DNA of 55,175 nt from Candidatus Cloacimonadota bacterium (GTDB taxonomy: Bacteria; Cloacimonadota; Cloacimonadia; JGIOTU-2). The position numbers are program-made. Position 1 is the first letter of the stretch. Every line of letters starts with the position of its first letter. Location: positions 1 to 55,175 of the forward strand of contig JAYEOL010000041.1 of assembly GCA_034722995.1 (NCBI GenBank). The letters are read 5' to 3'. Below are positions 24,001 to 30,000 of the stretch, piece after piece.

Positions 24001-27000
24001 CTTCAAACCAAGGGAACAAATTGCCAGTTTTGACTTTAATATAGAAGAGCGGATATTAGCCACGATTAAAAGAAGACCTTGCACAGCCGAAGATTTATCA
24101 GAAACACTTGGAATTCATATTAATGAAGTAAATAAGTATTTGCAGACGCTTCTAGAGAGAAGAATAATAGAAAGTCAGAATTTAGAGAGAGGGGTTTTCT
24201 TCAAGACTATAAAGGATGGAAAATAGGAAACAACATAATGATTAAAATTTAAAATGAATCTCATAATCTGGTTCAGTTTTCTTTTATCTTTAACACTAAT
24301 GATAATAATCGCCCGAAAGAGTATCTGGCTTGGTTTTATTATCGGTGCTCTGGTGCTTGGCGTATTCAATCTTAGTTTTAAAGAAATATTAGTCCAAACC
24401 CAAAAGACTATAACCAACCCATCAATCTTGTTGCTCGCACTTGCTGTTGGGCTGATTCCACTCATTGGCGGAACGTTAGAAATTTCTGGACTTATGGATG
24501 ACCTTGTTAATAATCTTAAAATGAAAAGGAAATCATTTCTTATGTTTGGTCCAGCGTTTCTTGGAATGTTGCCAATGCCCGGAGGTGCTTTGCTTTCTGC
24601 TCCATTAGTTTTAAGAGCTGGTTTAGATATATCTGATGAGCAATTTTCATCCATAAATGTTTGGTTCAGGCATACACTTCTCTTGATTTATCCACTTGGT
24701 GCTTTGTTGGTAACGACCAAGATGGCAAATCTTAATCTTTATACTGCGATGTTATGCCTTATTCCTGGATTTCTTCTGATGGTTTTTCTCGGTTATATTT
24801 TTTTGTTGAAAGGAATTAAGGGCAACCTTCAAAATAATAATAAATCCAATATAAAAAAACTTCTTGTCCCAGTTGGAATAATCCTATCTGCTCCAATTAT
24901 TCACATCATTTTAATGAGTATTTTTAGAAATCTTATTCCTGAGATACCTCTTTTAGTAGGTGTTTTGACAAGTCTTATTCTTGCTTTTTCCTTTGGAAAA
25001 CTAAATTTTAAAAAGGTAATTCCCATTTCAATAAAGATGAAACCATGGAAATTTTTTCTAATAATTATCGGAATGTTTCTCTTTCTGAATATATTTCAGA
25101 TGTCAAATATATCAAAAGTTATAGCTGATATAGTATTTTGCAAAAGTTTTTTAGTTGTAGGGATTGCTGCATTCTTGGGTTTTGTAACAGGTAGGGTTCA
25201 GATGCCTTTTGCAATATTATTGCCTATTTATTACTCAAAGTTTGGAAGTGGGGCAATGACATATTTGGTTTTTGCCGTGATGTTTTTTTCTACTTTTATG
25301 GGATATATTATTTCTCCTATACACCCTTGCGTATCTGTTTCTATTGAATTCTTCGGTTCAACATTAAAGGATTTTTTTAAGAGAGCAATTTTGCCTGCTG
25401 GAATATCATTGTTTGTTGCTCTTATCATATCTATAGTTTGTGTGTGANNNNNNNNNNNNNNNNNNNNNNNNNNNNNNNNNNNNNNNNNNNNNNNNNNNNN
25501 NNNNNNNNNNNNNNNNNNNNNNNNNNNNNNNNNNNNNNNNNNNNNNNGTGTTTTATGAACGAAAACAAAAAATATAATCAGGAGGTAATATTATGATAGA
25601 TAGGACAGTCAAAATCTTAGGTGAGGATGCTCAATATTTATTAGAGCATAAATGTGAAACAATCCCCAAAGCGGCTCTTCATCTTCCGGGACCTGATTTT
25701 ATAGACCATATTTGCGTTATTTCAGACAGGAGCAGTGCTGTTTTGAGAAATTTACAAACCGTATTTGGCCATGGTAGATTAACGGGGACAGGATATCTTT
25801 CCATACTCCCTGTTGACCAGGGCATAGAACATTCAGCAGGTGCTTCTTTTGCACCCAACCCCATTTATTTTGACCCTGAAAATATCGTGAAACTTGCAAT
25901 TGAAGGAGGGTGTAATGCCGTTGCCTCAACACTGGGAGTATTAGGCGTGGTATCAAGGAAATATGCTCATAAAATTCCATTTATTATGAAGATTAACCAC
26001 AATGAACTTCTAACTTATCCAAACTCTTATGACCAAAGGCTTTTTGCTTCGGTCCAGCAAGCATTTGAGATGGGAGCAGTCGCAGTTGGTGCAACTATCT
26101 ATTTTGGCTCGCAAGAATCTCGCAGACAGATAGAGGAGATTTCCATAGCATTTGAAGAAGCTCATTCACTTGGAATGTTTACGGTTCTCTGGTGCTATTT
26201 AAGAAATTCTGCTTTTAAACAAGATGGTATTGATTATCACACCTCTGCTGATTTAACAGGACAGGCTAATCATTTAGGTGTTACCATAGAAGCGGATATT
26301 GTAAAGCAAAAACAACCGACTAATAATGGTGGATATACTGCTCTTCATTTTGGTAAAACCCATCCATTAGTATATGAAAAACTCACAAGTGACCATCCAA
26401 TAGATTTGACACGATATCAAGTAGCAAATTGTTATATGGGAAGAGTTGGATTGATTAATTCTGGCGGTGCTTCAGGTGAAAATGATTTACAGCAGGTAGT
26501 GAAAACAGCAGTAATAAATAAAAGAGCAGGCGGAATGGGTATTATATCCGGAAGGAAAACCTTCCAAAAACCAATGAAAGAAGGTGTCCAGATATTCAAT
26601 GCAATCCAGGATGTCTATCTTGATAAAGATATAACTGTAGCATAGAGAGATAAAACGCAAAGGTAAAAGATTAACCACCTTCACTCCCGATATAATCGGG
26701 ACGGTGGTCAGGAAGATGAAAATAACATACCCCCTCCGATGAATCGGAGACCCCTCTTGTTGAGCGGAGCGAAATCCCGATTTTTCTCGGGGAGAGGGGT
26801 GGATTCCCGATTCTTTTCATCGGGAAGACGGGGTGTGTACACCTGCGTGCTATTTACATATGAAGATTATCTATTTTGCAGGCCTTATGAAATTAATATC
26901 AAGGAGAAAGGCATGAACTACGAAGGCAAAGCTTTAACTATTGCTGGCTCCGATTCAGGCGGAGGAGCTGGCATACAGGCAGATTTGAAGACTTTTCACG

Positions 27001-30000
27001 CTTTTAATGTCTTTGGTATGTCTGCAGTAACATCTGTAACATCACAGAATACTTTGGGGGTGCGCTCTATTCATGATATCCCCTCAAATGTAGTTGGCGA
27101 CCAAATAGATATGATAATGAAAGACATCGGAACAGATGCAACAAAGACCGGAATGGTCTCAAATAAGGAAATAATAGAAATAATTGTAGATAGGGTTGAA
27201 GAACACAAAATAGAAAAGTTGGTTGTTGACCCTGTTATGATTGCAAAAAGCGGTGCTCGTCTCTTAAGAAAAGATGCAGAGAAGGCACTTATAGAAAATT
27301 TACTACCTGTAGCTTTTCTTGTAACACCTAATGTTTTTGAAGCAGAAATAATTAGTGGCATAAGCATTAAAAATATTGAAGATGCTAAAAAATTAGCTAA
27401 GCTTATTCAAAAAATGGGAGCAAAAAATGTCCTTTTGAAAGGTGGTCATCTTTCAGGTGAAAATGCAATTGATATTCTCTTTGATGGCAAGGGTTTTACT
27501 TATTATGAAAAAGACAAGATTGACACAAAAAATACTCATGGAACCGGTTGCACCTTTTCTGCTGCTATAACCGCTGGATTAGCTAAAGGAGTGACTGTTT
27601 ACAATGCCATCAAAGTTGCGAAGGATTACATTACAAGAGCAATAAAAAATGCACCTACTAATATAGGGAAAGGGCATGGACCCCTCTATCATAATATTAA
27701 ACCATTGGAAATATCAGTATTTGAGGAAACTGCGGAGGATTTTGATAAATGGTTTAGCAAAAACGAAATTGTCTTTGAATCTGAATTTTTGGCAGAAAAG
27801 CATTTTTTATCTAATCCCAAGAATTCAGTTAGTATTGGAGTTGGAAGTGGGTTATTTGCATCAAGGTTGGGTATTGAATACGGCGTAGAACCCTCAAAAG
27901 AAATGGCAAAATTAGCTGAAAGAAGAGGGATTAAAGTTAAAATAGGAACTGCTGAAAAAGTTCCTTTTAAAGATGAAAGATTTGATACAGTCCTGCTAAG
28001 TACTATTCTTAGTTATGTAGATGCTCCCCCAAAAGCAGTAAATGAAGCATATCGTATTTTAAAACACAACGGAAAAGTTGTTGTCTCATTTCTTGCAAGA
28101 GAAGGTTCTTATGCGATGATGTACGATTTAGCATATCTGCGAGGGAAACACGATCCTGCTACTGCTCCTAAAGCTCCATATCCAGTTAAATTTATCAAAG
28201 ATACTTATTGGCGTTCCACAAAGGAAGTAAGTAATCTCTTAAAAAAAGCTGGCTTTGTTGATTTAAAATATGTGCAAACCTTTACAAAACATCCTAAATA
28301 CACAAATGATATGATAGAAGAGCCAATAGAGGGTTATCAAAAAGGGGATTACATAGTTATTCAGGGGAGAAAGCGATGACTATTTCAGCGAGACTTAGAA
28401 AAGATGCAGACGATATATGGAAGAAGATATTTGAACATCCATTTGTGACAGAATTATATGAAGGCACTTTGCCCATAGAAAAATTCAAGTTTTATGTCTT
28501 GCAGGATTACAACTATCTCATTTCTGCTATTAGAAACTTTAGCATTATTGCTTCCAAATGTGATACTGTGAAAGCTATGAGAGAAGTCGTGGAAATTTTA
28601 CATCTTGAATCAATAAGTGAATTTAGAGGTTATGAAAAATTATTAAAAGAATTAGGATATACCCTTGCGGATGCTGTCAATGTTCAGCCCATTCCTATGA
28701 ATGTATCTTATGTAAATTTTCTTCTCTCAACAAGCTCATTGAAATCTTATGCAGAAGCTATCACATCTGTGTTACCATGTTTCTGGACTTATGCTGAGAT
28801 CGCAGAGTATCATAAAGATAAATTGCAAAAAAATGGAAATAGATTATATACAGAATGGGCTTCGGTGTATTTTTCAGAAGATTATCTAAATTTAGTTAAG
28901 AAAATTAGAAATCTTGTGGATAATGCTGGTAGAGATTTTTCGTATGAGAAGTTAAGAAAAATATTTATAACTGCAAGCAGATATGAATATATGTATTGGG
29001 ATGCAATTTATAATATGCAGACCTGGGCTATTTAGCGTTTATCCATAAGGGCCCCGCCCGTTCTCCGTAGCACTGCGAAGGGTGAATTAGATAAAAATTC
29101 TATAGAATGTTTCCAAGATGTTATATATAGTCCCGATATATCGGGACGGGATAAATTTAAAACTTGAGTTACCCCGATGAATCGGGATGACTTAAGTTTT
29201 CTGATTAAATTATTATAAGCGGAGATTACAAAAAATTTTTTTCTAAATAACTTTTTATTTGACAGGTGAAATTATAAGATTAAGTTATGAACATAAGTTC
29301 ATTAAAAGTTATATTAAAATTAAACACTTTTTATTTTATAAAGAGTGTCTGATATGGAGGTAATCGTATGAATAAGAAACTTTTTTACTATCCGCTAGTA
29401 ATTGGATTGTTAGTTTTTGAAATGTTAACAGTTGGCTGTAATAAAAGGTCAGAGTATCAGGCAAAACAAAAGGAAAAGAGTCCATTGAGAACAAAAGAAC
29501 TTCAAAAACCAATCTCTCCAACTGATTCGCAAATTTACATAGAGATAAAAGCAGAAGGAGAAATTCTTCATTATCAAAGAGAAACTTTTTTGAATGAAGA
29601 GGATTTTTCTGAAATTCTAAAATCAAAAGAGAAATTTCAATCTGAAAAGACGGATGCTTTTAAGAAAATCCTGAAAAGATACAATAGACAAATCGTTAAT
29701 CCTAATATGGAATTTGACGAAGCGAGAAAATCCATTGCTTTTATTTGTGATATAACCGGTGCAAAAGAGGGAACTTGGTTTGACTTTGATTGGTTTTTAA
29801 GACCTCTGAGTTTAGACTTTCTTGATAATCATTTTGAAAGAAGAGAAAAAGAACTTTTCTGGGAAGGGAAAGTTGATGGTAAAATGACAAGAATAAGCAT
29901 AAAATTTCCTTTCAGCATTTCTAATTGCCATGAGCATGTCTGGGCCAAATAATAAATATAGAATTGTGTATAAAGCTAAAGAGGAGCAAAAATGAAGATT

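What a model noticed while it worked through the whole genome (the two positions that open the first line are those of the whole stretch)
26913..29035. Thiamine-pathway SAM methyltransferase fused to ThiD or Thi4
g00971 is ThiD fused to a class I methyltransferase, upstream of tenA, and the same methyltransferase is fused to thiazole synthase Thi4 in other genomes. It marks an unrecognised SAM-dependent step in thiamine synthesis or salvage in anaerobes. No such methylation step is part of the known pathway.
Evidence so far: Of the 120 best homologues of the methyltransferase part (60-100% identity), 106 are fused to ThiD, 13 to Thi4, 1 to neither; names include Acidobacteriota, Aminicenantes, Deltaproteobacteria and Thermoplasmatota. 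25 shorter homologues exist, one carrying TenA Pfam. The domain keeps a conserved SIGvGSG SAM motif. No paper on the fusion in the search listing.
(Added by a program. Inside this text positions count along the whole contig: contig position 1 is position 1 of the stretch shown here. "Call 12" and the like, gene names such as g00115 and contig names such as C1 are that model's own, and its searches are not shown. The text may have been shortened before it was handed on; [...] marks where a part breaks off. The agent that wrote the report below was given it as the finding of a first reader that could run no searches.)

Follow-up and report, generated by a model that had tools for sequence, protein, structure and literature searches.

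The report
Orphan methyltransferase partnered with thiaminase II
This gene fuses the vitamin B1 precursor kinase ThiD to an unstudied methyltransferase that, fused or free, sits almost always beside the B1-recycling enzyme TenA, so it likely performs an undescribed methylation step in recycling damaged vitamin B1; its substrate is not known.

Summary
Observation confirmed. Window 26913-28379 encodes ThiD fused to a class I SAM-methyltransferase (MT) domain and overlaps a Cys-type tenA by 4 bases. The 106 ThiD / 13 Thi4 / 1 neither count is reproduced.

The constant partner is TenA, not ThiD or Thi4. tenA overlaps the MT in 20 of 20 fused loci with downstream DNA. All 11 MT-bearing genomes among 251 Bacteroidales carry tenA (18 carry it in all). 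An MT-TenA fusion exists. The Thi4 fusions are one clade nested inside the ThiD fusions. A large stand-alone branch often sits directly behind TPP riboswitches. The family is distinct from generic TM1293-type methyltransferases and has no characterised close relative.

The MT does not replace ThiE or ThiC, and no bacimethrin-cluster genes were recognised beside it. Best reading (inferred, about 0.4): it methylates the leaving-group atom of a damaged thiamine or pyrimidine adduct so that TenA can release HMP. Main rival: it detoxifies wrong fragments. A role in TenA-linked salvage of some kind is about 0.85 likely.

No paper was found in 10 searches. This scan noted the same family before on other DNA (e1-982073, e1-978115, probably e1-4011197).

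The parts
26913..27698 (+). ThiD (HMP/HMP-P kinase) half of the fusion, residues 1-262; HGTGC catalytic motif intact
   Evidence: Pfam PF08543 E 4e-95 and TIGR00097 344 bits over cut-off 205; translation
27699..28379 (+). Class I SAM-methyltransferase domain of a TenA-associated subfamily (motif I SIGVGSG, GVEPS, EGSY..Y.LA, PYP, W, QT.T.HP.Y, GD)
   Evidence: Methyltransf_11; 1VLM E 5e-40; model pLDDT 92, 1VLM Z 32; invariant columns; tree
28376..29035 (+). tenA, Cys-type thiaminase II (D44, Y47, Y112, C135, Y139, E204), start overlapping the MT stop by 4 bases; Ala at position 51 where B. subtilis has Phe
   Evidence: TIGR04306 over cut-off; alignments; same 4-base overlap in 20 of 20 fused loci

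Best explanation
The methyltransferase domain is an add-on to TenA-dependent salvage of the thiamine pyrimidine, and it likely uses SAM to methylate the sulfur or nitrogen attached to the pyrimidine's 5-methylene in a damaged thiamine or pyrimidine adduct, which would create a charged leaving group that TenA can hydrolyse to HMP for ThiD. Candidate substrates (all inferred) are pyrimidinylmethyl thiols and thioethers formed from thiamine with sulfide or thiols, the thiazolethione or thiazolone forms of thiamine, and substituted amines. It would fill the slot that the deformylase YlmB fills in Bacillus: making a poor TenA substrate into a good one. Shown: fusion, intact fold, family boundary, linkage to tenA, TPP-riboswitch context, independence from ThiC, ThiM, Thi4 and ThiE. 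Inferred: SAM use, order of the steps, substrate. A role in TenA-linked thiamine salvage of some kind is about 0.85 likely; this specific chemistry about 0.4.
For: (1) tenA overlaps the MT stop by 4 bases in 20 of 20 fused genome loci that have downstream DNA; 2 more end at the contig edge. (2) Among 251 Bacteroidales: MT 11, TenA 18, ThiM 25; 11 of 11 MT genomes have TenA, 9 of 11 ThiM, 2 of 11 Thi4. Fisher p 6e-15, overstated by kinship. Among 301 genomes of G274's phylum (a Clostridia record) the single MT genome has it next to tenA; TenA is in 33. (3) In 80 metagenome loci, tenA is adjacent in 63 and in the same operon in 3. (4) MT-TenA fusion P0245. (5) 10 of 11 Bacteroidales MT genes lie in a TPP-riboswitch unit; in G055 the MT has its own riboswitch, apart from the thiM-thiE-thiL-thiD-tenA operon. 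(6) The catalytic Cys is invariant in the 33 partner TenAs aligned. (7) TenA position 51, Phe in B. subtilis, is non-aromatic in fused-clade TenAs (A17, S2, T1 of 20), Bacteroidales MT operons (D, 8 of 8), five operons from the window's own class (E, 5 of 5) and G358 (S), but aromatic in 7 of 7 MT-less Bacteroidales. That this residue lines the pocket is inferred from helix spacing. (8) TenA's preference for an amine leaving group and the YlmB step are from PMC5627462 (passages); that TenA needs a cationic leaving group is my recalled knowledge of its mechanism.
Against: No substrate, ligand or activity was tested, and the nearest structures (TM1293, TT1324) are uncharacterised. Linkage to TenA fits a step after TenA as well as one before it. 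Position 51 stays aromatic in 63 of 63 scored metagenome MT-linked TenAs and in 3 Bacteroidales, so the pocket change is not general and may be lineage history. The 80 metagenome loci collapse to 11 clusters at 70% identity (58 loci in one); only 6 of 11 clusters show tenA, and 2 clusters (6 loci) show neither tenA nor a TPP riboswitch. The window's cassette and 11 of 11 scanned ThiD-fused loci have no TPP riboswitch at the gathering score (some have little upstream DNA), nor do the five own-class operons. Most TenA genomes have no MT hit (7 of 18 and 32 of 33) and show no substitute gene in the seven cases inspected. Motif I has Ser where 125 of 134 generic relatives have Asp or Glu, so SAM binding may be altered.
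Confidence: 0.4

Rival explanations
1. Damage pre-emption after TenA: the MT methylates a wrong pyrimidine (for example from deaminated thiamine, or an antivitamin) or a reactive thiol fragment released by TenA, so that ThiD and ThiE do not build a toxic analogue.
For: Explains the dependence on TenA equally well and the fusion to the kinase that would take up the wrong pyrimidine. Some fused loci lie among peroxiredoxin, rubrerythrin, hybrid-cluster, desulfoferrodoxin, ferritin and thioredoxin genes. Nudix clean-up of oxidised TPP is a precedent (PMC9544542, passage).
Against: The ThiD half has decayed in about 6 fusions while the MT is kept. The gene sits just upstream of tenA in most adjacent cases, though order proves little. 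The altered TenA position 51 in several MT-linked lineages fits a changed TenA substrate better.
Confidence: 0.25
2. Protein-directed or non-catalytic role: the domain binds SAM or another adenosyl ligand and regulates, repairs or methylates TenA itself.
For: Translational coupling and a direct MT-TenA fusion suggest fixed stoichiometry; motif I acid replaced by Ser.
Against: Many invariant aromatic and polar residues around a lid insertion look like a small-molecule site (inference). In 8 Bacteroidales operons the MT is several genes from tenA, and in G055 on another contig.
Confidence: 0.1
3. Thiazole-side step: the MT processes the Thi4 product (adenylated thiazole), carboxythiazole or another thiazole precursor for ThiM.
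For: 13 Thi4 fusions, all with His at the sulfide-type site. The MT is directly upstream of thiM in 8 of 11 Bacteroidales. Thi4 is in 19 of 22 genomes with a fusion.
Against: The Thi4 fusion arose once, inside the ThiD-fused clade. Thi4 was not found in 9 of 11 Bacteroidales with the MT, nor ThiM in the own genome and 2 of 11 Bacteroidales. Minimal MT-tenA pairs are common.
Confidence: 0.08
4. BcmC-like O- or S-methylation that makes bacimethrin or a related 2-substituted pyrimidine, as an antivitamin or an alternative vitamer.
For: In Paenibacillus a SAM methyltransferase of the bacimethrin cluster sits with thiM, thiD and thiE behind a putative TPP riboswitch (PMC5627462, passages).
Against: No thymidylate-synthase-like or glycosyltransferase gene was recognised among the recurrent neighbours I scanned (singletons not scanned). 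Thiaminase I was found in 0 of 40 MT genomes (the model rang in no control genome but did hit G298 below cut-off). It does not explain the dependence on TenA.
Confidence: 0.07
5. Hitch-hiker: a generic TM1293-type methyltransferase that fused by chance and has no thiamine role.
For: A generic paralogue 39% identical lies 4.4 kb away, and generic members fuse to many unrelated domains. A basal group shows no thiamine context.
Against: A separate clade (SH-aLRT 99), three thiamine fusion partners, its own TPP riboswitch when alone, and the same link to tenA across several phyla and different TenA lineages.
Confidence: 0.05

Closest known systems
ThiXYZ-YlmB-TenA-ThiD salvage of base-degraded thiamine (Bacillus type; described in passages of PMC5627462)
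   Same: Cys-type TenA plus ThiD, often TPP-riboswitch control, and an accessory enzyme beside TenA
   Different: The accessory enzyme is a SAM-methyltransferase fold, not a deformylase; no ThiXYZ or YlmB gene was recognised among the recurrent neighbours scanned; the substrate is unknown
TM1293 of Thermotoga maritima (PDB 1VLM) and generic relatives such as window 32797-33426
   Same: Same fold and family (Z 32, rmsd 1.4, about 40% identity)
   Different: Separate clade with Ser in motif I, a lid insertion with PYP, and QTxTxHPxY; thiamine context. TM1293 itself is uncharacterised
Bacimethrin cluster methyltransferase (BcmC, name recalled) with pyrimidine kinase and thiaminase I
   Same: A SAM methyltransferase beside a ThiD-type kinase in a thi operon, acting on a pyrimidine
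   Different: Partner is thiaminase II, not thiaminase I; no nucleotide hydroxymethylase or glycosyltransferase recognised nearby; sequence relation to BcmC not tested
Known ThiD fusions: ThiD-ThiN, ThiD-TenA (yeast THI20, PRK14713) and ThiE-ThiD
   Same: ThiD carrying a second thiamine-pathway domain at its C-terminus
   Different: The second domain is a methyltransferase; the own genome has a separate thiE and no ThiN, so it is not the coupling enzyme

Membership tests
ThiD HMP/HMP-P kinase | TIGR00097 above cut-off and GTGC anion-hole motif | tested here: met
   344 bits vs 205; HGTGC in the translation
Class I SAM-dependent methyltransferase | Rossmann-like seven-strand fold | tested here: met
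   Model pLDDT 92; 1VLM TM 0.85/0.93, Z 32
Class I SAM-dependent methyltransferase | Glycine-rich motif I and acidic residue ending strand 2 | tested here: met
   G47, G49, G51 and E64 invariant in 54 sequences
Class I SAM-dependent methyltransferase | Acidic residue heading motif I (usual, not universal) | tested here: not met
   Ser in 117 of 120 fused and 118 of 120 stand-alone proteins; Ser at this place in histamine N-methyltransferase is recalled, not checked
Class I SAM-dependent methyltransferase | SAM binding and methyl transfer | not testable with these tools
   Needs an assay
TenA_C thiaminase II | Catalytic Cys135, Asp44, Glu205 and pocket tyrosines | tested here: met
   D44, Y47, C135, Y139 invariant and E204 nearly so in 33 partner TenAs; TIGR04306 over cut-off
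YlmB-TenA salvage route | YlmB deformylase and ThiXYZ importer with tenA | tested here: inconclusive
   Not recognised among recurrent operon neighbours; whole genomes were not searched for them
Bacimethrin biosynthesis cluster | Thiaminase I in the cluster or genome | tested here: inconclusive
   0 of 40 MT genomes; no control genome rang, one sub-cut-off hit elsewhere
Bacimethrin biosynthesis cluster | Thymidylate-synthase-like and glycosyltransferase genes next to the methyltransferase | tested here: not met
   The window cassette is thiD-MT then tenA, flanked by an aldolase and an unknown gene; none among recurrent neighbours elsewhere
Bacimethrin biosynthesis cluster | Sequence kinship to BcmC | not tested
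   No BcmC sequence was obtained; no NCBIfam model passed its cut-off for the MT
Generic TM1293-type methyltransferases | Falls inside the generic clade, acidic motif I, no lid insertion | tested here: not met
   Separate side of a branch with support 99; profile scores 206 or more vs 160 or less

The most novel reading that the evidence does not exclude
Anaerobes have an undescribed thiamine salvage branch in which a SAM methyltransferase activates sulfur- or amine-substituted thiamine breakdown products for a co-adapted TenA. This points to an unrecognised pool of B1 vitamers in sediments, rumen and gut, and to 'methylate to make a leaving group' as a salvage strategy.
Probability: 0.35. Interest if true: 0.85.

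Novelty: new variant of a known kind. Interest (0 to 1): 0.7.

Why it matters
Thiamine synthesis and salvage are treated as well mapped, and no methylation step is part of them in what I could read. Here is a bounded enzyme family (over 1,600 protein clusters by one search) tied to TenA in sediment bacteria, Thermoplasmata, Bacteroidales, gut Clostridia-type contigs and Gemella. Whichever rival holds, its substrate is probably a B1-related compound that microbes exchange or must remove and that is not currently measured. The two-gene MT-tenA unit makes the question directly testable.

Tried and rejected
ThiE replacement: rejected; the own genome has thiE and thi4 behind its only TPP riboswitch on contig C56, and thiE shares operons with the MT. 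ThiC replacement: rejected; ThiC passes cut-off in 16 of 23 genomes tested, although not found in the own genome (96.9% complete). TPP riboswitch upstream of the window gene: none, even at E<=1. Substitute gene in MT-less tenA operons: none seen in 7 of 7. Functional hint from structure: characterised enzymes score Z 18.6 or lower at about 20% identity, which is uninformative. ESM Atlas gave generic names only. Plasmid collection: no match. Expression: no RNA holder listed, which is no evidence either way. The primary papers on bacimethrin synthesis (PMC4004229) and plant TenA (PMC6943918) are not held. The 11 generic loci (L023-L028, L030-L034) were not examined for neighbours. The tree is the quick search with SH-aLRT only; three rows were duplicated under two labels.
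Full report
Observation. Window 26913-28379 (+) encodes 488 aa: a ThiD domain (PF08543 E 4e-95; TIGR00097 above cut-off) followed by a class I methyltransferase (MT) domain (Methyltransf_11 E 8e-17). Its stop overlaps the start of tenA (28376-29035) by 4 bases. No TPP riboswitch lies upstream in the window.

Own genome. thiE and thi4 sit behind the genome's only TPP riboswitch on contig C56, and a thiamine pyrophosphokinase homologue is on C26. ThiC, ThiM and ThiN were not found (96.9% complete). The closest record, L001 (92% identical, titled Cloacimonadota), lies in a genome that has ThiC. So the MT is not the coupling enzyme, and this organism may depend on TenA and ThiD for its pyrimidine.

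The family. The nearest solved structure is the uncharacterised TM1293 (1VLM, E 5e-40). The model (pLDDT 92) matches it at TM 0.85/0.93 and Z 32; characterised enzymes score Z 18.6 or lower. The thiamine-linked proteins form their own side of the tree against 14 generic relatives (SH-aLRT 99, quick tree of 92 rows). They are marked by Ser heading motif I (117 of 120 fused, 118 of 120 stand-alone, against Asp/Glu in 125 of 134 generic representatives), a lid insertion with PYP, and QTxTxHPxY. A stand-alone query returned 1,648 proteins at E<=1e-40, of which I saw 120. Named members include Bacteroidales and Gemella morbillorum. No NCBIfam model fits the MT above cut-off.

The constant partner is TenA. 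Of 34 genome loci, 22 are fusions (20 ThiD, 2 Thi4), 1 is a stand-alone family member and 11 are generic and were not examined further. In 20 of 20 fusions with downstream DNA, tenA overlaps the stop by 4 bases. All fused forms are one clade (98), and the 13 Thi4 fusions are one clade (99) inside it, so the Thi4 fusion is a single later partner swap. In the two Syntrophaceae-type loci the order is riboswitch, TPK, thiD, thi4-MT, tenA. Eight of 106 ThiD halves lack the HG[TS]GC motif; six of these also have a decayed N-terminus, including a Thermoplasmatota protein, while the MT is kept. P0245 is an MT-TenA fusion.

Genome profiles. In 251 genomes of the order of G022 (Bacteroidales by its record title; G022 was the seed), the MT is in 11, TenA in 18 and ThiM in 25. 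All 11 MT genomes have TenA, 9 have ThiM and 2 have Thi4 (Fisher p 6e-15, overstated by kinship). Eight have the operon riboswitch-MT-thiM-thiE-(thiL)-thiD-tenA, two have MT-tenA adjacent (one inside a thiE-G-H-F operon), and one has the MT alone behind its own riboswitch with the rest of the operon behind a second riboswitch elsewhere; 10 of 11 lie in a TPP-riboswitch unit. The seven TenA genomes without an MT hit have the same operon with no substitute gene. In 301 genomes of G274's phylum the MT is in 1, next to tenA, and TenA is in 33. Among 41 relatives of the own genome, five complete genomes carry a stand-alone MT heading a thi string that ends in tenA, with no riboswitch at the gathering score. 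ThiC passes cut-off in 16 of 23 genomes tested.

Metagenome loci. Of the best 80 of 335 confirmed loci, tenA is adjacent in 63, in the same operon in 3 and not seen in 14, several cut by contig ends. They reduce to 11 clusters at 70% identity, 58 loci in one; 6 of 11 clusters show tenA. Of the other five, three have a TPP riboswitch directly upstream (L067, L069, L073 at the gathering score; L068 below it), and two clusters, six loci, show no thiamine link. TPP riboswitches were found in 6 of the 19 loci scanned. Recurrent thiamine-type extras are a HAD hydrolase (9 loci) and ThiW (4 loci).

The partner TenA. The catalytic Cys is invariant in the 33 partner TenAs aligned. Position 51, Phe in B. 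subtilis, is Ala, Ser or Thr in 20 of 20 fused-clade TenAs, Asp in 8 of 8 Bacteroidales MT operons, Glu in 5 of 5 own-class operons and Ser in G358. It is aromatic in 7 of 7 MT-less Bacteroidales, but also in 3 other MT-bearing Bacteroidales and in 63 of 63 scored metagenome MT-linked TenAs. None of the 120 closest homologues of the window's TenA has an aromatic residue there. This hints at a changed leaving-group pocket in some lineages; it is not general, and the pocket role is inferred from helix spacing only.

Mechanism. Shown: an intact MT fold that occurs where TenA occurs, is often under TPP-riboswitch control, and does not need ThiC, ThiM, Thi4 or an intact fused ThiD. Inferred: TenA hydrolyses pyrimidines that carry a charged leaving group (recalled), and in Bacillus a helper enzyme, YlmB, prepares its substrate (PMC5627462, passages). 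A methyltransferase in that slot would most simply turn a neutral thiol, thioether, thione or amine substituent into a sulfonium or ammonium that TenA can displace, giving HMP for ThiD. I put this at 0.4, detoxification of a wrong fragment at 0.25, a protein-directed role at 0.1, a thiazole step at 0.08, bacimethrin-type synthesis at 0.07 and hitch-hiking at 0.05. Thiaminase I was found in 0 of 40 MT genomes, with a weak control, and kinship to BcmC was not tested.

Literature. Ten searches listed no paper on this fusion or family, judged from titles and abstract starts. I read passages only of PMC5627462, PMC8454699 (its one methyltransferase mention is CobA), PMC12637900 and PMC9544542. PMC4004229 and PMC6943918 are not held. 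I opened no supplements; regulon tables could list the gene. Earlier notes of this scan report the same fusion in two other genomes and a riboswitch-controlled stand-alone form. They are not independent support, and I had reached the TenA link before seeing the two on the fusion.

Verdict. Real, undescribed in what I could search, and a new variant of TenA-dependent thiamine salvage with an enzyme of unknown substrate. Interest 0.7.

Noticed in passing
window 32797-33426 (+): Generic TM1293-type methyltransferase paralogue, 39% identical to the fused domain, without the thiamine-family signature
   Followed up: yes
window 29132-29145 and 29173-29186; similar variants near 26687 and 26736: Palindromic repeat CCCGATNNATCGGG flanks the cassette; 71 exact copies in the own genome, REP-like
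   Followed up: partly
L168:5218-5973 (-): A second TenA in an MT-bearing Bacteroidales genome has a signal-peptide-like N-terminus and Asp51: a possibly exported thiaminase II
   Followed up: no
L004:9407-10369, also L006, L008, L009, L015, L016: A radical SAM gene (FGPVPSRRLG type) directly follows tenA in 6 of 20 fused loci; a related gene lies at window 23279-24226
   Followed up: no
L003:2186-11265, L002, L009, L015: The fused cassette lies among oxidative-stress and iron genes (peroxiredoxin, rubrerythrin, hybrid-cluster protein, desulfoferrodoxin, ferritin, flavodiiron protein, thioredoxins)
   Followed up: partly
L088:5405-6061 and 8 other loci: A HAD hydrolase recurs inside thiM-thiE-thiD-MT-tenA operons; possible phosphatase for TMP or damaged TMP
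   Followed up: no
L018:7260-8681, L019:310-1731: Thermoplasmata fusions whose ThiD half has lost conserved kinase motifs while the MT is kept
   Followed up: partly
L163:4655-5932 (-): ThiE-TenA fusion (425 aa) in an MT-less Bacteroidales operon
   Followed up: no
window 18804-23207: dnaA (minus strand) opposite an rnpA-like and a yidC-like gene and the SRP RNA: probable replication-origin region (gene names read from the sequences, not scanned)
   Followed up: no
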